Part shown: positions 1,138 to 33,620 of the stretch, piece after piece
How the letters are laid out: every line of letters starts with the position of its first letter
Numbering within the stretch: the first letter of the stretch is position 1
Assembly: GCA_951406725.2 (NCBI GenBank)
Contig: OX597828.1
Span: 27,156,001-27,220,000, forward strand
Length of the DNA stretch: 64,000 bases
Reading direction: 5' to 3'
Source: Octopus vulgaris
Taxonomy: Eukaryota
Program-made: the position numbers and the translations under genes
Notes under the pieces: model-generated
Database searches by the model: none
Told to the model about the DNA's origin: nothing
The model's input: the letters and a program-made list of their open reading frames with translations, nothing else

Positions 1138-1327
1138 GGGAAAGTTTACGAAAAAAAACAAAAGACGAAGACAGGTGGTGTACAAAACAAACAGATGTAT
1201 TAGTATAACGCTCAGGAATAGAAAAAGTCTTTTACGTTTCGAGCCTATGCTCTTCTACAGAAAGGTACACAGAAAAAACAAGGAGAGAAAAAAATGTGTG
1301 TAATGGCTAACGATCTATCATGGCGAC
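1138..1327 (-). mobile_element. Family H2 short element with hammerhead-like motif (putative Penelope-like pLTR remnant), copy 1
   Basis: Homologous to 24808-24992, 28939-29109 and 32927-33086; flanked by (TA)n; minus strand reads CTTT CTGTAGA A GAGC ATAG GCTC GAAAC GTA AAAG. Confidence 0.7.
1229..1264 (-). ncRNA. Minimal type I hammerhead-like motif, variant core CUGUAGA
   Basis: Stem I CUUU/AAAG, stem II GAGC/GCUC, GAAAC-GUA; U instead of A at core position 6. Confidence 0.55.
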
Positions 1328-1349
1328 TATATATATACATGGACACACA

Positions 1350-1720
1350 CAAGGTGTGATGGGTAAATCGTTGTCATTTTATATTTTCAATTTCATGCAT
1401 GCACATTATTTGATGTTGTTGACTACTCAGTATAGTAGGGTCAGTCGGGTATTGTCTGTAAGAAAAACAGCACCATGACACAATTCCTAGGAGGTAGTGC
1501 TCCCTTAGGTCAAGAGGGTGGCTGCTGTAAAACCCTTTGTTTGGCAACAGGAATCTGCACCATGCCACACGAGCAAGATAACCCAGTCATGGCTGTCAGA
1601 CAATTTCTGCAATTACATCACCCCTAAACATTGGCACCTAGCTTCTCAAACTCTAACCCCACTTGATTATTAGTATGGGGCACAGTTGTGCTAGAGACCA
1701 ACAAAATTGCTTGTGACAAG
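1350..1720 (+). mobile_element. Internally deleted Tc1/mariner (DD37D/maT-type) relic
   Basis: Left end matches that of 48121-48962; translates WQQESAPCHTSKITQSWLSDNFCNYITPKHW, then a frameshifted NPLDY-like motif. Confidence 0.8.
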
Positions 1721-2059
1721 GAAGTTGTGTTGTCAGTCATACAACTTATGGGTTCAGTTACTGAAATGAGCAGCATATTGTGCTGTTGGTCATTGCACTG
1801 CAGTTCATGTCACCTCAGCGTACTTGGCTTTTGAAGACTTTTGGAATGTAAATGTTCCTTACTTGAAAAACAGGTGTAGGGTGGCCACAATAAGAGCCTC
1901 TAACTCTTAAACCCTGCCTGAAAATCAGTTCTCACCCAAGCCTTGCTGGCATTGTAAAAAAAGGATGTTAAGCAAACAAACAAAAGAACCCAATATTCAA
2001 TCTACTGATGAGATCCACTTCTGTTGATGAATTTCATTTACAAACAATAAGAAAATAAA

Positions 2060-2240
2060 AATTCGCCGAGCGAAATGCTTAGCGGTATTTCGTCTGTCGC
2101 TACGTTCTGAGTTCAAATTCCACTTAGGTTGACTTTGCCTTTCGGGGTCAATAAATTGAGTACCAGTTATTTACTGGGGTCGATCTAATTGGCCCCCCTC
2201 CCTCAAAATTTCAGGCCTTGTGCCTAGAGTAGAAAAGAAT
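2060..2240 (+). mobile_element. SINE family A (tRNA-like head, Meta/MESC-like core, tail 1)
   Basis: GAGTTCAAATTCC B-box, then GACTTTGCCTTT..GGGGTCAATAAATTGAGTACCAG core and TTTCAGGCCTTGTGCCTAGAGTAGAAAAG tail. Confidence 0.85.
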
Positions 2241-2254
2241 ATTAAAATAATTCT

Positions 2255-2445
2255 TTCAAATGTTGGTGCAAGGTCTGAGATTTTGAGGTGAGGCATTATC
2301 CGATTCCATTGACATCGGTGCTTGGCTAGTGCTTTATTCTATCGACTTCAGAAGGATGAAAGGCTAAGCTGCACTTTGTGTGATTTGATCTCATAATGTA
2401 AAGAGCCAGAAGGAATACAACTAAGCATTTTGTCCAGCATGCTAA
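2255..2445 (-). mobile_element. SINE family A, diverged, tail-to-tail with previous copy
   Basis: Reverse-complement core GAAGGATGAAAGGC and head GCATTTTGTCCAGCATGCTAA. Confidence 0.7.
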
Positions 2446-4301
2446 TCATGGACTATAATTAATTAATGAAAGAAAATAAGTTTATAACAATCAATAAATT
2501 TACATCAAGCTCATCTCCCTTGCAAAAAAACTGAGCAACTTATATGAAATGTGCTCAGTGTTTCAGTTTGTTCTAAAATGTATTCAATTTTTGAAATTTC
2601 TATTTTCTCTTTGCTGGAATCTTTTAAAATATCCAACTATAATTAACAAATTTTTTTTTTCATTTTTCTTGCTCAGAGTGAAACTATTAAATTCTGAGAC
2701 AACTGAAGGCTATAACTTTTACAGGCATTGATACAAATTTTTTATATTAATACTTCTCCCAAAGATATTAGTTAGATTACAGAAATAAAATAGTTCTTAT
2801 CAGGTATTGAAACTAAGACCTTTACTAGATATTTGCCTCTTACTGTGCATAACTTTTTCTCAATCACTTTGAACAACTTTCTTTGGAGGAAGTTCTTGAA
2901 ACTTTTTGTATTTTCAGTAATTATTGGACAACCTCAAAGCAATAGAAATTAACAAGACTGAGAAATATTAAGCTTTTGCAATGATAATTTCCAATCCAGA
3001 AGTAGTTAGTTACCATCGTTTAAATGCACATTGTTGATATCAGCATTTTGTAGTCCCGATAAGCTATAATTGTCTTCTTTATTCAAAGTTTAGTCTCTTC
3101 AAGTTGGCCAACTTTCTCAAAACCGTTTCCCTATACATATATAAACTCAACACATTTGTTGACATTGCTTGTATTGCACATACGTGCATTTTCCCTGATG
3201 CACTCAGCAGTTTACACATTATTGGTCAATTTTGAATAAAGAAAACTTGAAATTATGTTTGGCATCGTCCACCACCAGTTTTGGACTTTTGAATGAAGCG
3301 AATTCATGTAATCTTTTATCGCTTTATTGAACCCTTATTATTGATCTGTTAATGGTGGGGTCACTGCAAATTGGCAGTGGAATCTTAAGTTTTGATGATT
3401 TATTCAACAGTCTTTTTCTATACCCAATCAATCTGTTACAAGCAATAATAACTATCTGAACAAACAAATTGAACAAAAAAAAAAAAAAAAAGAAAGAAAG
3501 TGTAAAAGAAGAAAATTAAGCTATCAGAGTTTGGTAATTATCATATAGAACTCTGTTAAGAGGGCAGTTTGTAAGATGATGGCTGGCTTTACCAATGGCT
3601 GTGTAGAAATGACCAAATGGTAATCTTCAAGAATCAGATCTTCTTTATTGCAGTTAATGACTTTGCCTGAGGGTGTTTCTCCTTCTCTTCAATTCATTCT
3701 TCTCATTTTCTTTTGCCATAACTTTGTCCCCAGGCTGGATAATCTTGATTTTTTTACTTATATCATATTTTTTTGTCTTCTTTCTCTGTCTATATATCTC
3801 TCTCTCACCCTCGTGACCTATTGTCTTCCTTATAGAACATGGTTTTCAGCAATCATTTTTACGTAGCCATATGCAAGCCTGGCGGCATTTCACAGACTTC
3901 TTCCAGCCACCTTTACATTATTGTTCCTCTCTTTTATGGTAGCTAACAGCACCACTAACAAAAGGTACCTTTTTCTTTTCTCACGCTATATATTTAGATC
4001 AAACAATCACCAAGAAATACAACTGCTGCTATCTTTGTCTCTTTTCAAACTGCAGTCATTACCGCCATTTTTCCTATTTGCCAAGCCATACTCACAGACT
4101 TCCTCTCCCCATCTTACAAGTTCACACAGAAACCTACTCCAATTTTTATTAACATGAACTGAACAAGAATTCTTTCTCTAGAAACATCAATGGAAGATAT
4201 ATAAAGATTTTCAAAAGTATTCCCCCTCCTCCGTTTTAAAAGTGCTTTTCGAAGTATATTTGTATTTCTAAGTGTATGTATATTTATATATGTATATATG
4301 A

Positions 4302-4335
<34 letters not shown>

Positions 4336-4594
4336 GCACTTATGTGTGTATGTCTACGTGCAAATGACAGCTTCTTTGATAATTTCCTTCAAATGGTGAA
4401 AATGTATTTAGAAGTAGTAATTAATAAATTGTATTTCATCAACTTCTCTCTGCTTTGTTTTATTAATATATAAATTATACATGTATATATGCATGCATGC
4501 ATGTATGTGTGTATATATGTGTGTATTGTTGTGCATGTATATATGCATGTATGTCTATGTATGTATACATATGTGTATATATATTCTTACACTT

Positions 4595-5101
4595 GTACTT
4601 TTTCAGTCATCTTACTGCAGCCTTTAGTCAAACAAATTGATCCCAGAACTTATTCTTTGTAAGCTTAGTACTTATTCCATCAGTCTATTTTGGTGAACTG
4701 CTACGTTACAAAGACTTCAACACATCAACATCAGTTGTCAAAACAATGGTGGGGAAACAAACACACATACATACATACACACATACATGCATGCATACAT
4801 ACATACATACATACATACATACACACATACATGCATGCATACATACATACATACATACATACATACACACATACATGCATGCATACATGCATACATACAT
4901 ACCAACATACATACATACATGCATGCATGCATGCATGAGTGATAGGCTTCTTTCAGTTTCCGTCTACCAAATTCACTCACAAGGCTTTGGTTGGCCTGAG
5001 GCTATAGTAGAAAGGACTTGGCAAAGGTGCCACGCAGGGAGACTGAACCCAGAACCATGGGGTTGGGAAGCAAGTTTCCTACCACATGGCCACTCCTGCA
5101 C

Positions 5102-5103
<2 letters not shown>
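4595..5103 (-). mobile_element. SINE family B (tRNA-like head, CORE-like segment, internal microsatellite)
   Basis: Matches the full copies at 49163-49564 and 60822-61246; internal (TACA)n expansion. Confidence 0.85.
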
Positions 5104-5132
<29 letters not shown>

Positions 5133-5424
5133 CTTTCATTATCATTTTTATGAGCAGTCTTCTATGCTGGCTTGGGTTAAACAAAAAGATGCTTCAGCAA
5201 ATTTTCTAAATCTATATTGTCTTCCTCTTACCAACTCAAGGGCAAGAAAGAATTTGTCGATGCAGTTTCTCCTTCAACCTGATGCTTTCCCTGTCACCAA
5301 CACTTACCTGCTTTCTAGCAAGATAATATTTCCCCACGACCAGATATGTTTTTCATCATAGCAAACAGCATTACCTGCATGGCAATGGCACTCATTAACA
5401 ATCATCACATGAAGTACAGACGCG

Positions 5425-5470
<46 letters not shown>

Positions 5471-6749
5471 TACAAACAACAAGAAATTCACTCACTAGAT
5501 ACTAATCCATCTGGAGCTATAGCAGAAGATTATCCAAAGGTGTTACACAGTGGGACTGAACCTGAGACCACCTGGCTTGAAAGTGGAATTTTGAAACAAC
5601 ACAGACTAATGTATATGCTTACTTGTGCAAACATCCTCATGTGTATTTGTGTACACGTGTGTGTGTGTGTGTGTGTACACGTGCATAAATACATAGAAAG
5701 AACGAGAGAGGAGATGTATTGATGTTTCTCTTTATGCATGGTAATATGTGCATGCATAGACATGCACTCACTCAAACTTACTAACACACGCACATACAAA
5801 CACACACATTCCGAACTTATGTAAGGAAACTACTCGGGTCCTCAATGATGTGGCTTTAGTCTATGTGTTTTGAGATGCATGTAATAACTTCCTGAACTTA
5901 CTTTTATAAATGGCTTAATGCCAAATAAGATCTTTCAGAGTTTATTTTTTTTTTTACTATTTTTTTTTTCCTTTTTTTTTCTTTACTTTTATTTTTTTTA
6001 CAAGCTTCCAACACTGATTTTAATGTAGCAGACAAATAAAACAGGTCACATGATAAATCATTTCACTGCCAGACATCTTCAGGATAAATAATTTTTACTT
6101 TTCATTGTGATGTTAATGTGAACTTAGCTCTCTTACTAAATTGGTTCAAATCTAGTTTTGATTGCAATGTGTTTACAGTAATTCGTTTTCGTGACTCAGT
6201 TATTTCAATTTACTTTGGTTTTCCTTCACAGATGTCCATGAGAAAGTCATGAATGTCACATAATCCCAGGATTTTTGGGATGTTTTTTTTTTTTTTTTTC
6301 AGTGTTTTCCTCCATCATAAATCCAAGGTTTTTGGTTTTTTTTTTTGTTGTTGCTGTTTCTATGTATTATAACAAAATCAATATGGTTATGTAATTTTTC
6401 GGAAAATGTTCAGATGTGATGGCAGTGATAATACATGTTACTTAATATGGAAGCCAATTTTATAAAGCTCACATTATGAAGAGCATTCACCTTTAAAATG
6501 AAAAGCAAAAGAAAAAAAAAGCAAAAAAAAAAGAAGGAAATAATGTAAATGGAGTTGTGTAATAACACATGCTACCTCACATTTCACATCATAAAATATC
6601 CACGTTTTCAGACCGTTCCATATCGTGTTTGTATTTAAGCAAATGTATGTAAATGTCATCAAATTTGGTAGCAAAGTAAAGATTCTCTATGAAGGCTGTA
6701 AACAAATTTGGAGCAGATATTGGTTAATAAACATTGCAACATTTTTAAT

Positions 6750-7387
6750 ATAATGGCTGTGTGGTTAGGTTCAATCCTATGATTGGCACCTTGAGCAAGT
6801 TTTTTTCTACAATAAGTCTTTTACCAACCAAAGCCTTGAGACTGGATTTGGTTGATGGAAACTGAAAGAAGCAAAGTGTGTGTAAAGGCAGTTTGTGTTT
6901 CCTTGTTTTGATATCGTCTGATAAGTTATAAAGGAACAGACCCAACTTAATAAGTGGTATTCCTCATCAAAGGCGACGAGGTGGCAGAAACTTTAGCACA
7001 CCGGGTGAAATGTGTAGCCATATTTCGTCTGCTGTTACGTTCTGAGTTCAAATTCCGCCGAGGTCCACTTTGCCTTTCATCCTTTCGGGGTCGATTAAAT
7101 AAGTACCAGTTGCGCACTGGGGTCGATATAATCGACTTAATCTGTTTGTCTATCCCTGTTTGTCCCCCTCTGTGTTTAGCTCCTTGTGGGTAGTAAAGAA
7201 ATAGGTATTCCTCATCACCAATTCTGTGTGAAAACATGTCTTGTCATAGGGAAATATTATCTCTGCTTGCAAACAGTTGATGACGGCAGCAAAATGGACA
7301 TTTGGCTGTAGAAAAATCTGCTTCGGGGGACTTCTGTTTGACCCACGAGAAAGGAGAGATCAAAAGTAATGATGATGATGATGATGA
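6750..7387 (+). mobile_element. SINE family E (B-type head plus RTE-like (GAT)n tail), interrupted by a family A SINE
   Basis: Head TGGCTGTGTGGTT..GGCACCTTGAGCAAG; tail GGAAATATTA..GGCTGTAGAAAAATCTG..GACCCA..(GAT)n. Other tail copies near 1850-1975(+), 5260-5420(-), 10277-10530(-), 40150-40265(+), 49640-49785(+), 55625-55850(-). Confidence 0.7.
6970..7203 (+). mobile_element. Full-length SINE family A, tail 2, with 14-bp flanking direct repeat
   Basis: GGTATTCCTCATCA at 6956-6969 and 7204-7217; intact head, B-box and core CCTTTCATCCTTTCGGGGTCGATTAAATAAGTACCAG. Confidence 0.92.
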
Positions 7388-7647
7388 CTTCATAGTTACC
7401 CAATGAAAGAACATCTGGAAAGTGATTGTCAACAGCATGCTTGTGTGAGAATAACAAGTGTATAAACGTGTGTGTGTGTGTGTGTATATATGTATATATA
7501 TATATATATACATACACACACACACACATGTGTTTTTTTTATCTTATACGAGTGTCATTAGACTGTGGCCATGCTGGGACATTGCTTTGAAGAATTTTTA
7601 GTCGAATGAATCTACTCCAGTAACGTTATTGTTTTTTTTTGGTTTAA

Positions 7648-7866
7648 CCCTTTAGTATTTAAACCGGCCATATCCGGCCAAAATAGTTAATCTGTTTTAT
7701 GTTCAAACTGACCAGATCCAGGCCCTCACACCTACCCTACAATGTTATTCTACATTAAGTAATTACACCATCAAGATCTTGAAGATATGAGATAATACAT
7801 GATTAATTCAAATCAATATGAATCAATAAGCATTATGTTTGATAGAATAATCTGAACACTAAAGGG
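7648..7866. mobile_element. piggyBac-like MITE family M2, nested in a family B SINE
   Basis: TTAA-CCCTTTAGT...ACTAAAGGG-TTAA; host SINE B (about 7545-8075, minus) resumes on both sides. Confidence 0.85.
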
Positions 7867-8923
7867 TTAAAACCTGATATTATTCCATCAGTCTCTTTTG
7901 CCGGACTGTCAAGTTACAAAGATGGAAACACACCAACTCCGGTTGGCAAGTGGTGGTAGAGGACAAACACAGACACAAATGCATGCACACATACACACAC
8001 GTGTATGTACAACAGGCTTCTTTCAGTTTCTGTATATGAAATTCACTCACAAGGCTCTGGTTGACCCAAGGCTATGTATGTATATATATAATATTTATCA
8101 TTTAACGTCTGTTTTCCATGAGTTGGATGGTTCGACTGCGGTCTGGGAAGCCAGAAAGCTGCACCAAGCCCCCCCCCCCCACTATATATATATATAAATA
8201 TATACACATACACATATACACATATATGTATATGCACACAAACAGATATATATGTGTGTATATATATATAAACATATGTATATACATGTATATGTATGTA
8301 TATATGTGTGTCTGTAAACACATACGTAAATATACACACAGCTTATATCTCTCTCTTTTTGACATTCTAGAGGCAGACAGATATATATGTATATGTGTGT
8401 GTGAGAGAGAGAGTGGAAAGAAATGGTTGTTGTTGCTATTGTTGTTGTGGTGTTTGTGATGAGAAATTAGCAATTCAAATGACAGAGATGGCCAGTTGTT
8501 GTTTGTTTGTTAAGAGGAAATCTGCTGATGACATATTAATGTCACCCCTTTGCTAGAAGTGGCTAATTAATTAACAGCAATTCCCTTAGGTGCCACCACA
8601 ACAAGGAGAGCCATTCTTTTCTGTTTTTATTTGTTTGTTTGTTTGTTGTTGTTTTTCTGGCTTACTCTGTCATGCCTGCATCAGTGTATATGACTTGGGT
8701 TTTTGTGTGTGCGTGATGGGGTGACTGGGTTTTCTGTATGCTATCATTTGCTGTCTGGGTTGTGCTCCGCGTTTTTATATATACACACACATGTGTGTGT
8801 GTGTGTGTATGCACATGTTTATGTATATTTATATATGTTTACATACACGTGTGTGTGTGTGTATATATATGTATATTATATATATTATGTATATATATAT
8901 GTTAATGTATATATATATATATG

Positions 8924-8977
<54 letters not shown>

Positions 8978-9099
8978 GTATATATGTGTATATATATATA
9001 TAAATGTATGTATATATATATGTATATATATGTGTATGTGTATATATATAAGTGTGTGTATATGTATATATATATATATATATTGTATCTATATCTGTG

Positions 9100-9130
<31 letters not shown>

Positions 9131-9176
9131 GTTTATATCATATCATTATACATATATATATGTATATATACATATA

Positions 9177-9207
<31 letters not shown>

Positions 9208-9774
9208 TATGCATATACATATATATATATGCATATATGTCTGTATATATATACATATACATGTATATGTATATATATATGTGTTTTGAGTGTTTGCATT
9301 TATGCATGTATATATATATGTGTGTGTGTGTATGTATACCTATTTATAGATATATGCATACATATATACATTATATATGCATATGAAATTATAAATATAT
9401 ATATATATATATATACGTACATACACACATTCATGTATATGGGTCAACAAAGAAAGTAGCACTCAATATATTTAGTTGGAGGAGCATGTATTTAATAAAA
9501 TGTGAAGCTGTGTCACACTGTGTGTCACTATATACAAATGCATGCATGCAAACTCATGCACACACATTTACGTGGGGCAATTGTTTTTAATAGATGCAAG
9601 TTTGTTTTAGAAAGGTGACATGAATTTATTCATTGCTTATACACACGCATCTGTCTAAAGAAGTAAAATTAAAAATAAAAATGCATCTGCATAAGTGTGT
9701 GTGTGTGTGTGTTGACATGTATATTTGTGCGTGTATAGTTATATACCCATCTCTATCCCTCTCTTACATCTTAA

Positions 9775-9995
9775 CCCTTTCGTTACTGAATTTATTTTAA
9801 GATGCTCAGTGTTTCTTCCAATTACTTTAAATATAATAAAAAATTAAGTAAAATAACATCGTTATCATTAAGCTAGCGTTAGGAACATAAATTGTGACTA
9901 AGGTTTGGTGGAAGATTTTAATTCAGAACTTTTGAAAACCAGACATTTGTACTAAAGAGCCAGAGCCGGTTTCAGCCGGGTTGGTAACGAAAGGG
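9775..9995. mobile_element. piggyBac-like MITE family M1
   Basis: Perfect 12-bp TIR CCCTTTCGTTAC/GTAACGAAAGGG, TTAA on both sides; empty paralogous site at 10687-10690. Confidence 0.93.
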
Positions 9996-10658
9996 TTAAT
10001 GAGTACAAAGCCATCTTCCCCTGTTCCAATCCCTATCCCAGGTGAGGAGTTGTTGTCTTGGAAGTTTCTTAGCAACCCCTTCGGTGTTGGTGCTACATAA
10101 AAAGCACCCTGTACACTCTGTGTGAGAGAGAGAGAGAGAGAGAGAGAGGAAGGGTGAACTTGAAAAAGTGGTTGATGTGTATTTGTATATGAATATAAAC
10201 ACATACATACCACATATGCATACATTTGCATATATTGCATATCACGTACACACATACTGCATGTACATTTTGTGTGTCATCATCACCATTTTTATATCCA
10301 CTTTTCCATGCTTACATGGATCAGATGGAATTTGTCGAGACAGATTTTCTGCAGTCAGATGCTCATCCTGTTGCCAACCCTCACCTGCTTCCAAATAAGG
10401 GGATATTTCCCCATGACAAGACATGCTGCACATGTTTTCACTGCAGATTGGGAATGAAGGACAACTTTTGTATATGACAGTGACATTCGTTTACAACAGT
10501 CATACAGTGTATAGACAAGGAGACCTCAGATTACACACACACACACATGTACATATCTTATAAATATAGATATATATATTCTCTCTCTCTGTTCCTCTTC
10601 CCTCCTCTCTCTCTCCCCTTTTCATTCTAGACTAGCCAAAGATCTCCTCTATAGTAAA

Positions 10659-10812
10659 ATACCCATCTCTATCCCTCTCTTACACCTTAATGAGTACAAC
10701 GCCATCTTACCCTATTCCAATCCCTATCCCAAGTGAGGAGTTGTTGTCTTGGAAGTTTCTTAGCAACCCCTCTTGTGTTGGTGCTTCATAAAAAGCACCC
10801 TGTACACTCTGT
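10659..10812 (+). repeat. Local duplicate of 9743-10121 lacking the MITE
   Basis: ATACCCATCTCTATCCCTCTCTTACA-C-CTTAA-TGAGTACAA..AAAAGCACCCTGTACACTCTGT is present twice. Confidence 0.9.
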
Positions 10813-11726
10813 AAAGTGGTTGGTGTTATGAAGAGCATCTAGCCATAGAAACCATACCAAATCTGACAATTGGAGCCTGGTTCAACTCTCTGGCTTGCCA
10901 GTTACTGTCAGTTGTCCAACCCATGCCAGCATGGATGACAGACATTGAATGATGATGATATATACTTCACAGAACTCTTTTTGTTTACATCTACCAAATC
11001 TGCTCACAAGGTTTTTATTGGCTCAATGCTATTACAGAAGACACTTGTCCAAGGTGCCTTGCAGTGGGACTGAACTCAGAACCCTGTTGTCAGTAAACAG
11101 ATCTCTTGACCTCACAGCCATGCCTGCACTTATATTAAAAACATGATGCCAATTAGGAGCTGAACTCCAATGACAGAATTACTACATATCACTTGTATCT
11201 AAGTTAACAAAGATAATGTCGAATGGATAGACTTGTTACTGTAGAATTTAGCTTAGAGATATATAGGTAATCCTCAGTTTAATCAAAGACAGACAATTTT
11301 TCTAAGACCAATCCTAGAATTTGAAGAATTCAAAACAACTTTTAATTACTATTTAGTCATACTAAAATATCTGCGATCATCTAATTATTTTAAAGATATA
11401 ACTGCACTTAATCCAATGAATAGGAAAAGAGGTAAAAACAAAAGGAAGAAAGAAAAAAAAAATGAAATCATGTAATGACATTTAAGTAATTGTTAATTAG
11501 TCTTAAAAATATTAAAACATTAATGCTATTAATTAATGCTGCTATCCTGCGTAAAAAGACAATGCAAGAAGATAGAAATTAAAAAGCTTGCCATGTTGTT
11601 GTATGATAAAATTATTGCAGATATTACGTATTAATGTTAACTATGTGTTTATGGGTACTGAGTGTATATTTATGTACATGTGTGTGCAAGTGTGTTTATG
11701 CATTTGTATATGTGTGTGCATGTGTG

Positions 11727-11784
<58 letters not shown>

Positions 11785-11844
11785 CATATGTATGTGCATA
11801 TGTATATATGTATGTATATATGTGTATGTATATATATGTGTATG

Positions 11845-11875
<31 letters not shown>

Positions 11876-11902
11876 GTATATATATATATGTGTGTATGTA
11901 TG

Positions 11903-11933
<31 letters not shown>

Positions 11934-12327
11934 TCACACACACATACATGCACATATATATATGTATATATGCACAAGCAATGTACAGCTTGGTGATTGA
12001 TAAACTCTTCGAGGCTGACCTACTTGGTTAGTCCTAATTATAAAATTTTGTAGATATAATATTCTTCAGTGATGTCCCCCCACCACCTCCTACATTACTA
12101 ACACTCACAGTAGCACTTGGGGACACAGGGACACACACACACACACACACCCAAATAGATAAATAAACATTCTTATGATCATACTTATATGCTGAAAATT
12201 TTTGTGAATGTATGTAAATATAATTATGTATAATTCATTACTTTAGTGATACTCAATGTATTAATTGAGTTAATTAATTCTGGCTAAGAATATCTTTCTT
12301 TCATTATTACCATTTGGTGCTGCATTG

Positions 12328-21290: not shown

Positions 21291-21339
<49 letters not shown>

Positions 21340-22375: not shown

Positions 22376-22999
22376 ATGATATTCATGTATGTAATTGTGT
22401 CTGTGTGTATGTAACATTATTATCGTGATCAGGACTTTTGTGCACACCTTTCCCGGTTGGAAAAGTTTGGTTGAGTTAAAACCACCCTCCCTTCTTACAC
22501 GGGAGTAGCCTTGCAGATCCCCATATCAATCATTAAAGTTCCCTTTTTAAAGTAGTCTTTTATGGTTGAGAATTTCAGAGAGTTGACCTTCCACAAAGGA
22601 AGATTTTGACAAAACATTCCAAGTGGGAGACTGGTGGGGTAACAAATTGAAAAGAGAGAGAAAAAGGGCCTAGATGTGTCCTAAGGTGAGCCTGGACAGA
22701 GATGGTATTCAGTTTGTTCAGAGGGAACTGAGACTATTGAAGTATGGAAAATGTAGAGGAAGAAGAAGCACATGTGTGGGTTAAAGATTGTAGGATGATC
22801 AGGTAGAGTGAGGTGACTGTATTTCTGTGGGTTAGTAGTTGTTGTGTGTATTAGTGAGTGAATAAACAGGGTGTATTAAGGGTAGACCAGGTACAGGGAA
22901 GAGGTAACACATTTGTAGGTTAAAGGCTGTAATGTCCAACTGCCTCACTTCTATCTACCACATTCCATAATTTGTAAGAAGATAGACTTCGCTTGACTT

Positions 23000-23270
23000 A
23001 TTTGATTTGCTCTTCTTTTATGAATTGAAGTGGAGGTCTTCATCAGTATCATAATAAACAAATGGGTCATTGTGCGAGAAAATAAGACAAACAAACTCTG
23101 CTTTGTGTGTTAAAATTCAGTATAAATGGTTTTAGGTGTTTCTGGTAGAAGCTTTATTTGGTGTACCTCATATCCAAAGTATATAATATGCTGTTTGAGA
23201 ATGTTACTTATGTTGGGCAGACATTCTATGCAAGTAGGGACTTGGCTTTTATTTGCTTAAAACTCTTAAC
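23000..23270 (+). pseudogene. Possible highly decayed GIY-YIG (Penelope-like) endonuclease remnant
   Basis: In-frame VYNMLFENVTYVGQT near 23179-23223 resembles VY..YVGQT, but the spacing is shorter than typical and no ORF survives. Confidence 0.25.
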
Positions 23271-23780
23271 ACCCTGTTCTAAATTTTCAAAGGCAACAGA
23301 TTTATCCTGAAATGATTAAACATATAAACTATCTAAAAATGGGTTTGTTTATTCAAATGCTTGTAGCGTATTTATATGTAGTCAGATTATCGTGAAAATG
23401 GACAATATTGCAGAAACGACTTGGTTTTTATTGTAAATAGTCATTTGTGCTAAAAATAATATTTTGTGTGTGTGTGAGGTCGTTAATTCATTACATAGTG
23501 ATAGCTAAAAATAATGCACCAAAAGAAAATAATGAAATGTGATTTTAGCAATAAATGGAATTAGTAACAGGACACACAGACATCACAAATGACAAACATG
23601 CTTTCTCTGATATTTTTTGTAGCTTTTCCAATATGAAATTTACAAGTTTATTCCGTTATCTTTCATTAAAAAAATTTTTTTAAATCCAGGAACATATCAA
23701 AGTTGCATCCAAAAAGACATTGCAAACATTCAGCAACACACGTGTCATCACTTTTAGCAGTGAATGTTTACAGAATTTAA

Positions 23781-24002
23781 CCCTTTAGCATTTAAACCGG
23801 CCATATCCGGCCAAAAATATTCTACCTGATTTATGCTCAAACTGGCCAGATCCAGTCTCTCACACCAACTCTATAATATCATTTTAAAAATTAACAGCTA
23901 CCTCATCAAAATCTCATAGCTACAAGATTAATGCATGATTAATTCAAAACAATGTAGATGAAGAAGCATTAATTTTGGTAGAATAATGCCAACACTAAAA
24001 GG
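23781..24002. mobile_element. piggyBac-like MITE family M2
   Basis: TTAA-CCCTTTAGCA...CTAAAAGG-TTAA; internal similarity to 7648-7866. Fragments at 24170-24240, 45430-45524, 63927-64000. Confidence 0.85.
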
Positions 24003-24240
24003 TTAAATAATTAACAGATGAAGGAATTAAAGTTTTCTTCCTTAGAGTAAAGACTTTATAACTTCCTTTAAAACAACAATAAACAAAATTGTTCTGATCT
24101 GGGCAGTTTCAGGTGGTATAGGACTGAGGAATACGTGCAACAGTGGGTGGATTCATGTAGAATAGTACATTAACCCACTGGTATTTAAACTGACCATACC
24201 TAACACAAATCTTCCCCCTGTTTTATTTTCAAACTGACTA

Positions 24241-24476
24241 TGCGCATCCAGGCTCAGCGGTTGCGTAGGAAGTCAGAGACAAGAAACAGGAAGAAAGAGT
24301 GAGAGAAAGTTGGGGCGAAAGAGTACAACAGGGGTCGCCACCATCCCTTGCTGAAGCCTCATGGAGCTTTAGATGTTTTCACTCAATAAACACACACAAC
24401 GCCCGGTCTGGGAATCGAAACCACAATCCTCCAACCATGAGTCCACTGCCCTAACCATTGGGCCATTGTGCCTCCA
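24241..24476 (-). mobile_element. SINE family F, 3'-truncated
   Basis: Reverse complement of about 37834-38060. Confidence 0.85.
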
Positions 24477-24807
24477 CGCTGATGCTGCTCAAGCAAAGTG
24501 GTTTATTGTACAGTGAGGTTACTGGACATTTTGTGTCTCAAAGAAGAATAATAGAACTTACATATAAATAAATGAAGTAAACTTATGTGGTTTCTTATTT
24601 TTCAGTGTGTGTGTGCATAAGAAAATTATGGCTTATTTTAGAATGCTTACAATTCATAGGGTATTATAAATTCAGTTTACTTTTGTGCTGTTATATGTCT
24701 ATCCCAAATGAATTAAGTTTACGTTATTTACATTTTGGATCCTGAATTTTGAATAGAAATACACTGTTTGTATGCCTTATTTAAGTAATACTAATGTTAG
24801 TCACTGT

Positions 24808-24992
24808 GAGAATTTACAAAAAAACAATAGACAAAGACGAGTGTGTAAACAACAAACAGATGTATTAGTTTAATGCTCGGGAAGTGAGAAAGTCTTTTAC
24901 GTTTTGAGCCTAAGCTCTTCGACAGAAGGGAACACAAAAATAAACAGGGAGAGAAAATAGAAAAAGTTTAGTGGCTAATGATCTATCATGGC
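24808..24992 (-). mobile_element. Family H2 copy 2
   Basis: Motif at 24894-24929: core CUGUCGA, stem II intact, GAAAC mutated to AAAAC. Confidence 0.7.
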
Positions 24993-25597
24993 AAAAAATG
25001 GTCATAGTATGGTCAGTGTGGCTGCACAGCCATTCAGTCAATAACAACAACTACTATATGCCACTAGTATATGTGTGTGTATCTCTGAAAATCTGATGAT
25101 GTGCATGTGTCTTATACTCACGAAATTTGAAGTAATGTGGACCTGACTCAAGAATTGCTATTAAGTAAATCTACCTTCGATTAATTAGGTCAAGTCCTAC
25201 ATTTTTTGTTTTCATGCATCAGTACCTACACACACACACATACATGCATGCACACACACACACACATATGCCACTGCAAGTTCTGTGCTGGTAAGGTAGA
25301 AATCACAAAGTTTGACTGTTGCAGATGCACACACACACGCGCACAACTGTTCTCGGGATGCACTCAACAACATCTGCAAAAATAAAAGACGCCTCTGTCT
25401 GCTTTATCTATTTAGTTAAAATTTTTGCTTTATTCCTAAGAATGTGGTGTGGGTGGTATGATGGGTGGGTCATGGTAGGAAGGTTTAAAGTTCTAATGGA
25501 AGTTGAGGTGAGACAAAAAATGTGAAGAAAAATATTAGAATGAGCCGAATTTGAGCAAGAAAAAGTTTAGAAGACAAAATAACAACAACACTGACAT

Positions 25598-25637
<40 letters not shown>

Positions 25638-26985
25638 AATAATAATAATAATAATAATAATGATAATAATTGTATCAATGTTGGTAAGTTATAAAAAAAG
25701 ATTAGAGGACAAAACAGAAGCAGCAGCAGCAGTAGCAGCAACAACAGATATGTTGATAGTAGTAAGTAGTAAAGACAAGATATAGTAACAGTGTTACTAA
25801 TGAAAGAAACAATAATATATGGATTAATATTGCAATATTACTAATACTACTGTCAACAACAACAACAATAATAATAATAATAATAATAATAATGATGATA
25901 GGAAGATGAAGTAGGATTGTAATTAGTTGTAATAATGTGTGTAGTTATAAATTGTACTAATAACAATGATATTAGTAATAATGATAATGATTGTTGAAAA
26001 GAAAAAAAAAAACTATTAGAAATAGACGTAAAATATTGCACAGAAAGATGTTAGTAGAAATATGTGTAGGTGGCGGGGGGGGGGGTCATGATGGTTGGTG
26101 GTTGGTGGTTGGTGGTGGTGATGCTGAGAGTAACGATGATAGTTATACAAAGGACAATTAATGGATTATAACGATGTTGTTGATGATGATGATGATAATG
26201 GTGATGATGAGGGGGACGATATAACAGAGATGAAAATGGCAGCAGCAACACACACACACACACACACAAAATATCCTACAAAAACTAACAATTACAAATG
26301 TGAAAAAAATTGAGAAAGTTTGTGAAAATGATGATGATGATGACAATGATGATGATGAAAACAACAATATTATTTGTGATGTTGTTGTTGTTGTTGTTAT
26401 TAATGATGATTCTGTTTTCTTAAAGATTATGTTGATGGTGATTGTGATGATGATTTTTTTATAACAACAACAACAATAATAATAATAATAATGATTATAA
26501 TGATCATAATAATAATAATGATAATAATAATAATGATAATAATGATAATAATAAGAAGAAGAAGGAATGATGTCAATGATTATAATGATGTTGATAATCG
26601 TGATAATGATGAAAAAAGATTATTTTCTTTTAATTTTTTAATTTTTTTATTTCCTTCTTGTGCCTGAGAAAATTAAAGCAGCCTCGTACCGAAGGTGTCA
26701 AGAACAGTTTGGAATAAAATGTTTTAAAGAAAATATTAAACAAAATAAAGAAATACATAAAAAGCAAAAACAAAATGAAATAAAATAAAAAATAAAAATA
26801 AAGAATGGGAAACAAAGAAGACTTCAGAAATGAAATAAAATAAAATAAAATAGATTAAAATGAAGTGTGAAAGACTCAGAAATACGAAAACTTTTGGGAA
26901 TAGGTTTCTTTTACTTTCTCAGTCTCTCTCTGTCTTCTCTCTCTCTCTCTCTCTCACACATTCTTTATTGCTTGTTCTTTCTTAC

Positions 26986-27018
<33 letters not shown>

Positions 27019-27402
27019 TTGATTTTGATTTTTTTGTGGCCAATTTTTATTTCTATTTTATCTTTCAATATTTTTCTTTGTTGTTATTTTTGTTGCTCCA
27101 TTATAGTTGATATTTACTTTATAAGGATAATCTTTGGTGCTGCTACTGTACAGAACGAGGAATTTGGTACATTTTCATCTTCTTCAGAATCTTAATTCTA
27201 TTCTTACCTCTGGAGAAATATGTAGCAACCCAAAGCTGATATGGTGGACATAAGTGTGTGTGTGTGTGTGCATTCACACATACAGGGCAGAGAGAGAGAG
27301 ACACCTAGATTGTGTGTATCCACAAAGGAAATACAAATGCATATAACAGTACACATTACTCATATATATATGTTATATATATAAACACACGCATGCACAT
27401 GG

Positions 27403-28052
27403 GCACTATCTCCGACATAAAACCAAGCGACCATATTCATAACAGTAACGTACTTACAAAATGCAACATATCAGGTATTGAAGCCATCCTAATCAAAGTA
27501 CAGCTTAGATGGTCAGGTCATCCCTCACGTATGAGTGATATCAGAATCCCAAAGCAACTTCTATTTGGCCAATTCCCCATAGGAAGGTCAGTTGGAAGGC
27601 CACTCTTGCGCTTCAAAAAGAAACTGAAAGACAATCTGAAAAGATGCAACATTCCGTTTTCTTCCTGGGAAAACAAAGCATTAAAATGCAGGACCTCGTG
27701 CCGGTCCTGTTTCTCCTCAGTTAAAATTTTTTAGCAAAATCGACTCCGGCATCAAGACCAACATCGTGCAAGCATGAAGACATGCTGGCAAAATGCTGCT
27801 CCCTTAAATGGAAACCTTACCTGTCATTGTGGTTTTTTTTGGCACGAAGCAAAGCAGGCCTTGCTGTCTTTTCAAGAAAACATATACTAAATAATCTGCA
27901 AGCACTCCAGCAAACTGAGTTCTCAACTTGTCCCAGTTTCCAAAAGGTCTGCTAGGCACCAGCAGGCCTCAAGAGACTGAAGCATGTCCATAGAACATGA
28001 TCAACACTTTATTTTACTGAACTCTTATTCATAGTCCATGACAAGAGAATCC

Positions 28053-28055
<3 letters not shown>
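27403..28055 (+). mobile_element. RTE-clade LINE 3' fragment (post-RT C-terminus and 3' end)
   Basis: ISDIKPSDHIHNSNVLTKCNISGIEAILIKVQLRWSGHPSRMSDIRIPKQLLFGQFPIGRSVGRPLLRFKKKLKDNLK is the typical RTE LRWxGH..RM..R.PK..GRP region; decayed Cys motifs follow; ends at (TA)n. Confidence 0.88.
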
Positions 28056-28098
<43 letters not shown>

Positions 28099-28905
28099 GT
28101 GTGTGTGGAGGTACATGGCTTAGGGGTTAGAGTGTTGCACTCATGATTACAAGATCATGAGTTCAGTTCCCAGACTGGGTGCTGTGTTCTTAGGCAAGGC
28201 ACTTCATTTCACATTGCTCTGTGATCATGTTGTCATCTGACAGATGGCACCCATAGCACCTGTACAGTTAATGTCAATCTGATGGAGAGAGTGAGCTTCT
28301 GTGTACACAAAGATTTGTCAGCAAGAAATTGCAGTTGGCTAGATCAGCCACTGGGCTGGAATGAAGACTAGGGTTTTAGTTGGGGTAGGGTTATCCAGGT
28401 GGGAGTGAAAAATACAAGATAAAAGATTATCCTTTAGCTGTGTGGTTTGGTGGTCAATGCAATGCGTGTGGGAGGAAAGGGTTGAGCTAACTAGTGGAGA
28501 GAGGAGGCAATAGGGATGAGAGGTAACATGAGTGTTTAGTTATAAATCTGTTGACTACAACATGGGATTCAGTTTTAAGTTTAAAAAACTTTAATGAGGA
28601 CTGTGTGTGCACTTTAGATGTATATGTTTGTTGATTGATACCAGAATAATGAATTTATTTATTGTAACAACAGTAATGAATAAATATTTATAGTTGTAAC
28701 TTCAACGAAAGGTTTGCAGATGGTTAAAAGTAGTAGAATTAAATAGTACTCGAATACCTAAGGTAGAGTAAAAATGTTATATTGTTAAATCCCCCCAAAA
28801 ACTTGACAAACTGTTACTCAGAGCTCTACATAACTGATATATATATACAAATTTATGGTAAATAAACATACAGCATAATGTATACTAAGTGTGTGTGTGT
28901 GTATG

Positions 28906-28938
<33 letters not shown>

Positions 28939-29107
28939 GGGGAGAGTTTACAAAAAAACAAAAGACGAAAACTGGTGGTGTACAAAACAAACAGATGTAT
29001 TAGTATAACGCTCAGGAATAGAAAAAGGTGTTTTACGTTTCGAGCCTATGCTCTTCTACAGAAAGGGACACAGAAAAAAATGTGTGTAGTGGCTAACGAT
29101 CTATCAT

Positions 29108-29109
<2 letters not shown>
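28939..29109 (-). mobile_element. Family H2 copy 3, inside (TA)n
   Basis: Nearly identical to 1138-1327; motif at 29030-29065. Confidence 0.75.
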
Positions 29110-29161
<52 letters not shown>

Positions 29162-29168
29162 CTATCTA

Positions 29169-29199
<31 letters not shown>

Positions 29200-29214
29200 C
29201 TATCTATCTATCTA

Positions 29215-29270
<56 letters not shown>

Positions 29271-30339
29271 TAAAGTTTGTCGCCACTTTGGCATTGCTGT
29301 TCTGGTTGAACGGAACTGCCATGTTGAAATGGCAACAAACATTACTTGCCAGTATAGCTACTGTGTTCATCTCTCACACATATTATACAACTAGCTCATT
29401 TGCTTTTACACACACACACACACATGTATGTATGTATGTATGTATGAGAGAGATGTTTTCAAGTTCAAACTCTACCTAGGTTCGGATTACGTTTTATCAT
29501 TCTGAGCTCAATAAAATGAAATATCGTGATGAGGAGGAAAGTGATGATATAATCAGCAATACCTGACAGAGTGGTGTCCCAGCATGGCGATGGTTCAATA
29601 TGTGAAACCAGAAACAGCATAGAATAACGTAGCCTAATAGTCCATCATTTTGTGAAAGCGCCTAACTATAACTCCATTTCATTACACATTGACTACACAC
29701 AATGGCACACCTCCACATAGACACATATGTAATGTAAGCCTCCGCCCTCATACATACACAGACATATTTTTCAAAGCTAAGAGTCTACTTAGTATTGGTG
29801 ATTATTGTATTACATCAATTTTATCATGCTTACAGGAGTGCAATTCGTATTTGCTCAACAATTGCTTTTTACAGTTGGATGATTTTTCCAACCAATAATC
29901 ACTCAGCCATGAAGCAATAAGTGTTTTATATATATATGTGTGTGTGTGTGTGTGTATCTTTACTATCAATCAAGCCAACAGGAGTGAGTACAATTCTGTG
30001 CTTAAAAAAACATAATGGCTTTAATAAGATGGGGGGTATGATGACCCTTTTACTTACAAAGCTGTTTTGATCATCATATCTTACACAGGGACAACAGAAC
30101 ACAATTTTGTTTTGTTTTCCATTTTTATGGTGGAAGAGAAAGGGAAAGTGAGGGAAGGCTTTCATTAATTAAATCATACACCCATACTAGATTAGTACCT
30201 GAGTTATTATTGATTGCAAAATGATAAAATTAAAAACTAGACCTCTCAGAATTTTAATATGATACACATTCAAATAAGCCTTTATGAAATATAGATACTC
30301 TGTATGTGTATCTATCTGTCTGTCTATCTATCTTTCTAT

Positions 30340-30485
30340 TTTTCTTTCCTTTTTTTTCTTTCATACTTTCCCTTTTACGATCCCTTTTGATCGAAAGCCT
30401 ACCCCACTTTTTTTTTTGCTCCCCAAAAAGAAAAGCTCTACTTTGTCCTGTCTGTGTGCAGCCCTGTGTGGCTAATAAAGAAACA
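30340..30485 (+). mobile_element. Short retroposon 3' end sharing its terminus with SINE A tail 2
   Basis: TTGTCCTGTCTGTGTGCAGCCCTGTGTGGCTAATAAAGAAAC versus TTGTCCCCTCTGTGTTTAGCTCCTTGTGGGTAGTAAAGAAAT at 7160-7202. Confidence 0.5.
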
Positions 30486-30866
30486 TATCTATCTATCTAT
30501 CTATGTGCATCAGTGTGTATATATATATAAATATATATATATGTGTCTATATATATATACGTATATGTGTATATATATATATATAGGGACTTTGAATTTT
30601 TGGCTAGTTAAGCCATTGTGATGCATTAATCTTAGTTTTGTATAGTCTCTGTTGGCTTAAAGTCTTTGTGTTTGAGAAGGGTAGTAATTAGGTTTTAGAT
30701 TGGATTGTTATGGAGAGCTGTTTTGGAGGAATTTTGATTGATTAAATTTGAGCTTGTGTTATTGTTTAGAATGTAAGTCTCTACACTTGTATCAATAATT
30801 ATAGTTCTTTATTTCCAGCAATATTGAGCTCTACTTATTTTGTCATCACCACACTTCCTTTGTGTG

Positions 30867-30930
<64 letters not shown>

Positions 30931-31103
30931 CACACATACATAAAATGTGTGTTGTGTGTGACAGTCATTTTAGTTTCCATTTACCAAATCTAATAGCAAG
31001 GTTTTGCTTCACTCAGGGTCTTAGTAGAAGACATTTATGTAAGGTACCACACAGTAGGACTGGGCCTGAAACAATGTGGTTGGGAAGCAAGTTTTGAGTA
31101 GTC

Positions 31104-31315
31104 TGTAGAAGGGATAAGAAGCAACTTTCAGGAACAATAATAGTTTATTGGCAGAGAAAGTTGTAGGCTTTTCCCATATTGAAGTTTGTTAAGCGGAAAA
31201 AGTTTTTTTTTTATATAGTTCACGGTTAGCAACTAGGTTTGCTATGAATGCAAATAAAAATCCAAATTGAGGGAACAGAGCAGGTAAAAATACAGGCTTT
31301 ATATCTTTCCTAGCA
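31104..31315 (-). mobile_element. Possible solo LTR
   Basis: Minus strand TG...GATATAAAGC...AATAAA...CTACA order; no TSD seen. Confidence 0.25.
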
Positions 31316-32663
31316 GAACCATGAAAGTAAAGATTATATGAGAGGCTTCCACACTGTTTCCACTAATGTAACTAAAGCCCACAGAATTGGTTGGTCTGGA
31401 CTATAAAAAAAGAAATGTTCAAAATGCTACAGAATAGATCTTGTGTTCTTCACACAACTGACTCTAACGTTTTAGTTCACTCTAAGAGAAAATACAATAT
31501 TAGGTGTTGAAATGTGGCACCTGAAAACACTGAGTGATTACACTAATTAAAATATATTGTTAATAATAAACATAGAAAAATGCCTAGGTTAATAATTGTA
31601 AAGGACATCTTCCAATTTAATTACTGTGATTTCTATAATTTTACATCTTGTTTTTCTTTTTTCTGTTCTTTTAGCAAATGATCAACAAGATTTTTATATT
31701 TTTCTTTGTCTTCGTTTGCTTTCTTTTTTTTTTTTTGTGGAGGTAGGGTGGGGGTGGCTCGATTACCTTCTTTTGCTCATTTATTCCTTCTTTCTACTTT
31801 GACAACTTTTTCAGTGTGATTCTTCATTTCATAATATTAGGTCTTGCATTGTAGATTATTTCAGTTAATCCATTAATCTCGTCAAACATACTATCTACTA
31901 CTATCAGTCACACACATGTACCAACATCTAGACACTACTACCACCACCTCACACACCACACCACACACACCAGCCAACCAGCTGCTCACTTACTCACTCC
32001 CTCCGCTTCCCCCTTCACTTCCATCATCCACCATATCAATTCTTCACATATTGTTGTCACCACCATTCCCCCTCTCTTGTTGCCCCTTCACCTCCAACAC
32101 CCTCCCATCCAACCTCCCCCCCCCTATTTTGGCACAATATCTCATCTCAGCTCATCTTTACTGTGTTTCCATCACTGTAACCATCGATGACATGGCATCG
32201 TTAATCAGCAACATCGTTTCCTGTATCACTTCATCTTCGACTTCACTCCCAACAGTTCCATCAATCAGTTTTAATTACTGTTTAAATGAATTGCTTCACT
32301 TTGATATTAATTAGGTTCAACTTCAGTTACAAACTGTTGCTACATTAAACAAACTTGTTGTGAAGATGTATATGCTTATGTGTGTTTGTGTGTATGTATA
32401 TATATAATTACTTTGTGTGTGTGTGTGTGTTTGTGTGTGTTGTTCGGATGGTCATATTATAAATTGTCATGGTAGTTGATGAACTTGTTCAAGATGACAT
32501 ATGTCGGGGAATACAGTTTTCTAACTTCTACATATCTTTCTAATCTTAAACTTCTAGAATTCATAATATCAAATGGTTTTCAACGTCCATACTATTTAAG
32601 TGGTTCCTGCCAGTGGAGTTTGATGGTCATGCTGGAGCACTGTAACCTAATGATATAATTAAA

Positions 32664-32712
<49 letters not shown>

Positions 32713-32926
32713 TTTATATATACACACTCTCTCACACATACACACACATATCAGTATACACCACTCTGCTCTCTCTACCACCATCCACTGCAAACACACT
32801 GACTCATACTCACACCACATTCAGAGGGCGCTTTTTATGTGTCACTGGCACAAGAGCCGGTTAGGTGGTCCTGTCATCGATCACATTCAGATATATATAT
32901 ATATATATATATAGATGAAATTTATA

Positions 32927-33620
32927 GATGAAATTTATAGAAAAACGAAAGACGAAGACAGGTGTATGAACAACAAGCAGGTGTATTAGTTTGATGCTTG
33001 GGAAAATGAAAAATGAAAAAGTGTTTTATGTTTCGAGCCTACGCTCTTCAACAGAAAGGAATTAGAGGAAAAAGAACAGAGAGAAAATGAAGAGGGGAAG
33101 TGGATGTCAGATAAAGAGAGGAAACAGGTGTCAGATGAAGAGAGGTGGGGAGAGTCATATAAAGAGAGGAGGGGATTTGATCCCATGTGGCACAAAGGAG
33201 CGAAGTGGGAAGATTAATTCCTGTTCATGGCAAAGATGGGAGTCCAGATGGCCCTTGTGTAAAAACAATCTAAACACAGACAGATGATGTGGTGAATGAC
33301 CGGTAGAGCAGAAATGGCATGAGACCAGGATGTTGTTGCCAAGTCAGATGTTTCAGAGATGCTCTATGAACCAGTCAGCCAGTGGCATCCTGCTTGACTG
33401 GTGGACAGGGAAGAGCAGGAGATGCAGTAAATGATGTTACTAGAAGTGCAGGTAAGGGAGTCAGGGATGTGGTAGGGACAATGATGGTTGCTTGTGATGA
33501 AGGTGGTGTCAGGGAGGCAGGGTCAAGTGTGGAAGTATGGGTGGGTGCAGGGGAATGAGCTAGGCTAGGAGGTGGGGTTAGAGAAGAAATTGTGAACAAA
33601 GACCATCTAGTCATCCTTCA
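32927..33620 (-). mobile_element. Family H2 copy 4 with longer pyrimidine-rich 5' extension
   Basis: Motif at 33023-33058 (core CUGUUGA, GAAAC-AUA); adjacent to (TA)n; includes a 24-bp tandem repeat at 33087-33175. The extension boundary is uncertain. Confidence 0.55.

What the first reader, a model, noticed from the sequence alone, without database searches (positions are those of the whole stretch)
1138..33086. Second family with a fixed non-canonical hammerhead core (CUGUNGA)
Seen: four minus-strand copies (motifs 1229-1264, 24894-24929, 29030-29065, 33023-33058) have hammerhead topology with U at position 6 in all four. Position 7 varies (A, C, A, U) and the first loop II base varies (AUAG, UUAG, AUAG, GUAG), while stem II GAGC/GCUC is invariant. 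Copy 2 has lost G12, copy 4 has AUA for GUA, and copies 2-4 each have a stem I mismatch. Established: N7 and loop II are the free positions of hammerheads and A6 is normally conserved. Inference: a natural A6U variant that canonical motif searches would miss, or a fold kept for protein recognition rather than catalysis.
Basis: partly seen in the sequence, partly recalled or inferred. Interest (0 to 1): 0.72.

Follow-up and report, generated by a model that had tools for sequence, protein, structure and literature searches.

The report
Penelope hammerhead with fixed U6 core
The four motifs are tail ends of a very abundant, young jumping gene whose small self-cutting-RNA motif has U where nearly all such RNAs have A, and genomic traces suggest it likely cuts far less often than normal ones in the same genome, which would make it a natural test of whether these elements need the cut.

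Summary
Confirmed at the stated coordinates. The four copies are 5'-truncated 3' ends of a Neptune-type Penelope-like retrotransposon (PLE) in an octopus-like genome; copy 4 still carries a decayed GIY-YIG. Intact 4.5-kb elements carry the same motif. Exact-motif counts: U6 9,102 (plus 4,846 with another base 17), A6 107, C/G6 264, so A6 is background mutation. All 22 well-formed motifs on the related PLE loci with one (metagenomes) have A6 and compensatory stems, so U6 is derived. One correction: loop II, G12 and AUA 'variation' is CpG decay; only N7 and N17 change between subfamilies. New test: an A6 family with 478 exact motifs has 5 U6-snRNA joins exactly at its cut site; this family (13,948 exact motifs) has none found. 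No sharp pile-up of copy ends at the cut. Best reading: a strongly slowed hammerhead kept under selection, copied mostly uncut; a dead protein-bound fold is the close rival. Cleavage is untested. The scan noted this family before in this genome, and A6U in other genomes (not checked here). No paper on natural A6U found; two key papers were not held.

The parts
1135..1340 (-). Copy 1: 5'-truncated 3' end (pseudo-LTR) of the PLE, between (TA)n tracts; N7 = A subfamily
1229..1264 (-). Minimal type I hammerhead motif: stem I CUUU/AAAG, C3 at 1260, U6 at 1257, stem II GAGC/GCUC, palindromic ACGU, predicted cut between 1233 and 1232
24813..24992 (-). Copy 2 of the PLE 3' end (N7 = C subfamily); motif 24894-24929, U6 at 24922, G12 lost at a CpG
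28937..29108 (-). Copy 3 of the PLE 3' end (N7 = A subfamily); motif 29030-29065, U6 at 29058
32920..33165 (-). Copy 4 of the PLE 3' end (older N7 = U subfamily); motif 33023-33058, U6 at 33051, G16.2 lost at a CpG
33166..33603 (-). Decayed end of the PLE ORF attached to copy 4: cysteine linker and GIY-YIG endonuclease, with stops and a frameshift; 57-60% identical to the intact ORF over residues 818-958
   Evidence: (tblastn E 6.7e-31)

Best explanation
The motif is the minimal type I hammerhead at the 3' end of a young Neptune-type Penelope-like retrotransposon, with U fixed at core position 6, and it likely cuts itself only rarely while the element is copied mostly from uncut RNA. Shown: the element is a 4.5-kb RT + GIY-YIG unit in partial tandems; copies end at a fixed point about 105 nt downstream of the cut site, against (TA)n; the motif stayed the same across subfamilies except at N7 and N17. 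Inferred: the endonuclease nicks (TA)n, reverse transcription starts at the UUAUAUAU just past the motif and reads through it; selection keeps the hammerhead fold because two motifs of a tandem transcript pair through their ACGU palindromes, probably helped by the element's protein, and a rare cut-and-rejoin would give a unit-length circle that regenerates two matching repeats. U6 is predicted to slow the chemistry and can also pair with A15.1 in an inactive hairpin.
For: PLE link. U6 fixed and derived: 9,102 U / 107 A / 264 C+G; position 4 control 179 changes; 21 of 23 flank-picked, 47 of 47 protein-picked and 27 of 29 unselected copies U6; in four runs of four organisms N7 varies widely but U6-to-A stays under the 1% listing limit; 22 of 22 plausible motifs on 16 related PLE loci have A6 (one further weak match set aside), U6 rows form one branch among them. 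Fold conserved: 8 of 10 pairs with two-sided changes, covariation 0.76 against 0.18 shuffled. Constraint map of a hammerhead: consensus divergence 23-26% in flanks against 5-8% in the motif, lineage changes only at N7 (A, C, G, U) and N17 (A to U in two lineages; 96 U, 4 G, 0 C in the first 100 rows). Little cutting: 0 U6-snRNA joins at this cut site among 13,948 exact motifs against 5 for an A6 family of 478 exact motifs (about 146 expected at equal rate); 30 of 33 unselected copies span the cut site; none of 20 long elements starts at it. Repeats copied twice: 24 variants shared by both repeats of one insert, including one 96 nt downstream of the cut. Papers: core CUGA mutants have low activity (PMC9901934, passages), natural A6C is slow but not dead (PMC3088659, passages; PMC7151607, part 1), the anole PLE hammerhead cuts only with its protein and is not needed for insertion in vitro (PMC11167929, parts 1-2).
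Against: No cleavage was measured and no raw RNA reads were available. There is no positive trace of cutting for this family: no sharp pile-up of 5' ends at the cut (by eye), no hybrid with a foreign RNA at the cut, and the excess of small deletions starting there is explained by microhomology. Matching repeats can equally arise by end-to-end template jumping without any cut; 27 variants were in one repeat only. Loop II (GUAG) and other 3' blocks are also invariant across subfamilies, more than catalysis needs. The U6-snRNA comparison uses two unlike families of unknown expression and a single control rate. The inactive hairpin is only 0.2-2.5 kcal/mol better than the open form, is strong only in U7 subfamilies, and the motif folds no better than shuffles.
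Confidence: 0.5

Rival explanations
1. The motif no longer cuts at all. The hammerhead shape and sequence are kept because the element's protein binds it, or because it pairs two repeats, to select the template and place the start of reverse transcription; matching repeats come from template jumping.
For: No U6-snRNA joins at the cut; copies read through the site; invariant loop II and extra conserved blocks downstream; hammerhead mutants did not affect insertion of the anole PLE in vitro (PMC11167929, part 2); U6 pairs with A15.1 with probability about 0.9 in the U7 subfamilies, which include the youngest.
Against: The positions that changed between lineages are exactly the two that hammerhead chemistry leaves free (N7, and N17 within H), while G8, G12 and all other core bases held; a protein-only role does not obviously predict that. 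One unselected copy and two flank-picked copies begin at or within two bases of the cut.
Confidence: 0.33
2. U6 is a compensated core variant: in its own context (extra A after A9, dimer, bound protein or Mn2+) the ribozyme cuts at the ordinary rate of PLE hammerheads, and its ends are rejoined at once.
For: Full conservation of the other core bases; A6C is rescued by Mn2+ (PMC7151607, part 1); quick intramolecular rejoining would also leave few ends free for U6 snRNA; the lineage is highly successful.
Against: No second change in the core that could compensate: relatives with A6 have the same architecture. Pairwise mutagenesis found no rescue of CUGA mutants except the C3-G8 swap (PMC9901934, passages). 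A6 families in the same genome do leave joins at their cut sites.
Confidence: 0.11
3. The motif is a neutral relic: one master element picked up A6U and spread, and the apparent conservation reflects recent amplification or the way copies were picked.
For: All U6 copies belong to one lineage; many copies were picked by the motif itself.
Against: Subfamilies whose flanks differ by 23-26% keep the motif; flank-picked, protein-picked and unselected copies agree; depth of laid contigs peaks on the motif in eight runs of six organisms.
Confidence: 0.05

Closest known systems
Minimal type I hammerheads (min-HHR) of metazoan PLE pseudo-LTRs (Cervera and De la Pena 2014, PMC4209133; main text parts 1-2 of 4, supplement parts 1-2 of 3 read)
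   Same: Short stem I, extra base between A9 and G10.1, G10.1-C11.1 pair, palindromic C15.2-G16.2 with no loop III, position in the pLTR. Their Acropora Neptune row (GCU CUGACGAA GGGC UAAC GCUC ... AGC) equals the motif on my loci L305/L327/L370.
   Different: Every row of their Fig. S3 that I read has A6 (core variants shown are U3-A8); here U6 is fixed.
Natural A6C hammerhead of phage Bcep176 (PMC3088659, passages; PMC7151607, part 1 of 4)
   Same: Natural change at core position 6.
   Different: A single phage sequence with C, assayed as slow in Mg2+ and better in Mn2+; here U, in more than 13,900 exact copies of an animal retroelement, unassayed.
Poseidon PLE of Anolis (PAc) and its protein-assisted hammerhead (PMC11167929, parts 1-2 of 4)
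   Same: Tandem PLE, AT-rich targets, reverse transcription starts downstream of the motif on uncut RNA.
   Different: PAc is Poseidon clade, its hammerhead overlaps the ORF start and cuts with protein; here the motif is in a long 3' UTR about 630 nt upstream of the next ORF start and has U6.
Neptune-clade PLEs (definition from PMC8557442, passages)
   Same: RT, CX2-5CxxC linker, C-terminal GIY-YIG, pLTR tandems, (TA)n targets.
   Different: Related elements from metagenomes carry A6; long low-complexity 3' UTR.

Membership tests
Neptune-type EN+ PLE | Single ORF with RT and C-terminal GIY-YIG | tested here: met
   Open frames of 857-1214 aa in 19 of 20 fetched long loci plus a 917-aa piece; RVT_1 over cut-off; IIYCISC..YIGQTGRRLADRFAEH visible. 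Pfam GIY-YIG did not hit this ORF itself but is precomputed on several homologues.
Neptune-type EN+ PLE | CX2-5CxxC linker between RT and endonuclease | tested here: met
   PCSRPRCRTC in the ORF; nearest loci with a known motif carry the Acropora Neptune hammerhead. No named Neptune protein was aligned, so Neptune versus Nematis rests on that match.
Neptune-type EN+ PLE | Partial tandems forming pLTRs; (TA)n targets; 5' truncation | tested here: met
   tandems with one fixed junction, 3' ends against (TA)n, variable 5' ends.
Minimal type I hammerhead of PLEs | Stems I and II with covariation, palindromic stem III, extra base 9a | tested here: met
   92.7% of cells paired, 8 of 10 pairs with two-sided changes across 15 rows (5 from this family, 10 relatives; rows chosen by a descriptor that required pairing, which inflates the count). 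Within the family the stems do not vary.
Minimal type I hammerhead of PLEs | Core CUGANGA (A6) | tested here: not met
   U6 in 9,102 of 9,473 exact GUA motifs.
Minimal type I hammerhead of PLEs | GAAA, A15.1-U16.1, H17 | tested here: met
   departures in single copies are CpG decay.
Minimal type I hammerhead of PLEs | Site-specific self-cleavage (as dimer or with protein) | not testable with these tools
   Indirect genomic tests were negative or inconclusive.
Non-LTR retrozyme (short non-coding tandem unit) | Tandem 170-400-nt units bounded by hammerheads, no ORF | tested here: not met
   Short copies are truncated ends of a coding element; only occasional pairs such as L010.

The most novel reading that the evidence does not exclude
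A whole, still-spreading PLE lineage has turned its hammerhead into a non-cutting or barely cutting RNA switch: U6 locks the core in a hairpin, the fold is kept for the element's protein, and genomic U6-snRNA joins work as a fossil assay that separates cutting from non-cutting ribozyme families. If the A6U reported by other scan notes in sharks and other animals holds, the same loss arose repeatedly, showing that PLE hammerheads are primarily structural.
Probability: 0.25. Interest if true: 0.75.

Novelty: new variant of a known kind. Interest (0 to 1): 0.55.

Why it matters
What hammerheads do in Penelope-like elements is open (PMC8557442, passage: function unclear; PMC11167929: not needed in vitro). 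Here one of the most successful lineages in this genome carries a core change expected to cripple cutting, with A6 relatives and A6 families in the same genome as controls, so a few short RNAs can test whether cutting matters. It also shows that CUGANGA descriptors miss at least 13,948 motifs in one genome, and that U6-snRNA joins can serve as a genomic record of ribozyme cutting.

Tried and rejected
Rfam scan: no hammerhead among the 150 matches shown. Pile-up of 5' ends at the cut: about 49 distinct loci in the first 100 rows, read by eye, 5 starting exactly at the cut and 3 ambiguous, the rest spread from -6 to +10; upstream control about 21 loci over 7 positions; at most a two- to three-fold step, confounded by microhomology: inconclusive. 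Breaks at the cut site: of 26 loci, 12 deletions, 4 foreign continuations, 3 insertions, 7 double substitutions (by eye); controls gave about 4 of 30 examined (of 39) at +6, a control blind to T-rich deletions, and 6 of 12 in loop II: inconclusive. Foreign left half joined at the cut: 0 of 5. Separate U6 families with other stems: the 30 loci examined of 87 were decayed or older relatives of this family or mis-read stems of canonical families. An amplified A6 subfamily: the 20 A6 loci examined of 107 are scattered over subfamilies. RNA evidence: no RNA holder listed, contigs only. Monomer folding no better than shuffles. Literature: searches found no natural hammerhead A6U; Lunse et al. 2017 and Arkhipova et al. 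2017 were not held and may list position-6 variants; PMC11014351 (passages) was irrelevant; PMC13282606 (passages) has no mention of hammerheads; PMC7229834, PMC6765202 passages and part 1 of bioRxiv 10.64898/2026.07.22.740005 gave background only (its supplements are closed). The shark element could not be tied to mine: its protein is not sister to the octopus-like branch and I had no DNA for it.

Full report
Observation. A loose descriptor finds 4 in the window and 0 in 300 shuffles. They are copies of one repeat, 77-86% alike over 150-210 nt. The window lies in a 2.8-Gb genome of 227 contigs; its repeats and earlier scan notes make it octopus-like, which is my inference.

What the copies are. 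The 30 closest relatives fetched share a fixed 3' end followed by (TA)n; copies picked by the motif alone have variable 5' ends. Copy 4 continues upstream into a decayed cysteine linker and GIY-YIG domain (tblastn E 6.7e-31). A protein search of the genome scored 150 of 18,544 candidates, all 90-100% identical to the query, many with long open frames. Twenty long loci showed a unit of about 4.5 kb: 5' UTR, an ORF with RT (PF00078), PCSRPRCRTC linker and GIY-YIG, a long low-complexity 3' UTR, the motif, and about 105 nt more. All young units carry CUGUUGA...GUU|AAAG apart from two single CpG changes in L128. Tandems share one junction sequence. This is a Neptune-type PLE by the features listed in PMC8557442 (passages read), and the window's copies are its 5'-truncated ends.

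U6 is fixed and is not decay. Exact 35-letter patterns give U6 9,102, A6 107, C or G 264, and 4,846 more U6 motifs with base 17 other than A. The control position U4 has 179 changed copies; A makes up 29% of changes at position 6 and about 35% at position 4 (first 100 rows, by eye), so A6 is background. The 20 A6 loci examined fall in different subfamilies. Copies picked without the motif agree: 21 of 23, 47 of 47 and 27 of 29 have U6. In contigs of four runs from four organisms, N7 takes all bases, U6-to-C reaches at most 1.4% and U6-to-A is not listed at the 1% limit.

What varies. Among 213 aligned copies, mismatches are 9.3% at the six CpG positions and 1.7% elsewhere. Between subfamily consensuses the flanks differ by 23-26% and the motif by 5-8%, the latter being N7, N17 and CpG artefacts in small old clusters (4 of 32 against 68 of 165 variable columns). 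N17 became U in two lineages, one with U7 and one with G7. That is the constraint map of a hammerhead, with position 6 as the one exception.

U6 is derived. Of 80 related PLE loci from metagenomes, 16 held a well-formed motif, 22 motifs in all, every one with A6 and the same architecture; one weak U6 match on the opposite strand with a 2-bp stem I was set aside. Across 5 family rows and 10 relatives, 8 of 10 pairs show two-sided changes (the relatives were found with a pairing filter). In a protein tree of 54 rows the three U6 rows form one branch (100/100) with A6 rows on both sides under a midpoint root. Cervera and De la Pena's Fig. S3 rows all have A6, and their Acropora Neptune row matches my L305 family.

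Does it cut? Known: CUGA single mutants are poorly active and not rescued by second changes (PMC9901934, passages); natural A6C is slow but active, better in Mn2+ (PMC3088659, PMC7151607); PLE minimal hammerheads are weak dimers (PMC4209133); the anole PLE hammerhead needs its protein and is dispensable for insertion in vitro (PMC11167929). Here: 30 of 33 unselected copies span the cut site, one starts exactly at it, and none of 20 long elements starts there. Pattern tests for piled-up ends or hybrids were inconclusive or negative. An earlier scan note (e1-8799442) suggested U6 snRNA joins as a trace of cutting, so I tested it. Among 48 U6 snRNA loci, two are joined exactly at the cut sites of two other hammerhead families with A6 and a U3-A8 core, none to this family. 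Targeted patterns found 5 independent joins for the first A6 family (7 rows: one inverted pair, one non-U6), which has 478 exact motifs, and 1 for the second. For this family 5 pattern hits in two searches were all unrelated to U6 snRNA or to the element. At equal rates about 146 would be expected, so the rate is at most about 2% of the control. The comparison is rough: the families differ in age, length and expression, and quick self-rejoining would also hide ends.

Tandem formation. In 12 inserts with two repeats, 8,430 clean columns showed 24 variants shared by both repeats of an insert and 27 in one repeat only, many of the latter in low-complexity sequence. Each insert's repeats were therefore largely copied from one template. 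A circle made by cutting at both motifs explains this, as Cervera and De la Pena proposed; end-to-end template jumping does too.

Possible effect of U6 on folding. U6 lets U4-G5-U6(-U7) pair with (A)ACG, closing the core into a hairpin: pairing probability about 0.9 in U7 subfamilies, 0.5 in A7, 0.15-0.3 in C7 and G7, and 0 for the 6-15.1 pair in natural A6 copies.

Verdict. Shown: family, element, fixation, derivation, conservation. Inferred: strongly slowed cutting (0.5), with a dead, protein-recognised fold close behind (0.33), a fully active variant (0.11) and a neutral relic (0.05). It works like a PLE minimal hammerhead in fold and place, but fails the A6 criterion, so it is a variant and not a plain member. 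I found no paper describing natural A6U in eight searches, but two likely papers were not held. The scan has reported this family from other windows of this genome and A6U from other genomes; those notes are unchecked except where stated.

Noticed in passing
   Followed up: no
L391/L523-L529 (e.g. G000:C3:84712613-84712812) and L406/L530 (G000:C7:59352809-59353024): U6 snRNA 3' ends joined exactly at the predicted cut sites of two abundant hammerhead families with a U3-A8 core (UUGAAAA) and palindromic stem III; 5 and 1 independent joins found.
   Followed up: partly
L373-L420: Most other U6 snRNA retrocopies are joined at their 3' U-tract to the start of SINE-like repeats, and one is a U6-U6 tandem (L418); L381-L385 look like a tandem U6 gene cluster.
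   Followed up: no
L081 7703/9254 and L119 2736/6607: Young elements inserted next to the (TA)n tail of an older subfamily copy, giving tandems of two different subfamilies.
   Followed up: partly
L073/L074 second copy (G000:C1 near 3426000): A copy that begins exactly at AAAGAC, the predicted cut site, after a short non-TA stretch.
   Followed up: no
window 7033, 12824, 42619, 46120, 47007, 47216, 52807, 56686, 56963; 35152-53429; 4942-61256: Three abundant SINE-like repeat families (D17/D19, D18, D20).
   Followed up: no
G000:C18:76866128, 76882487, 76898756: Three A6 copies spaced about 16.3 kb apart, probably a segmental tandem duplication.
   Followed up: no
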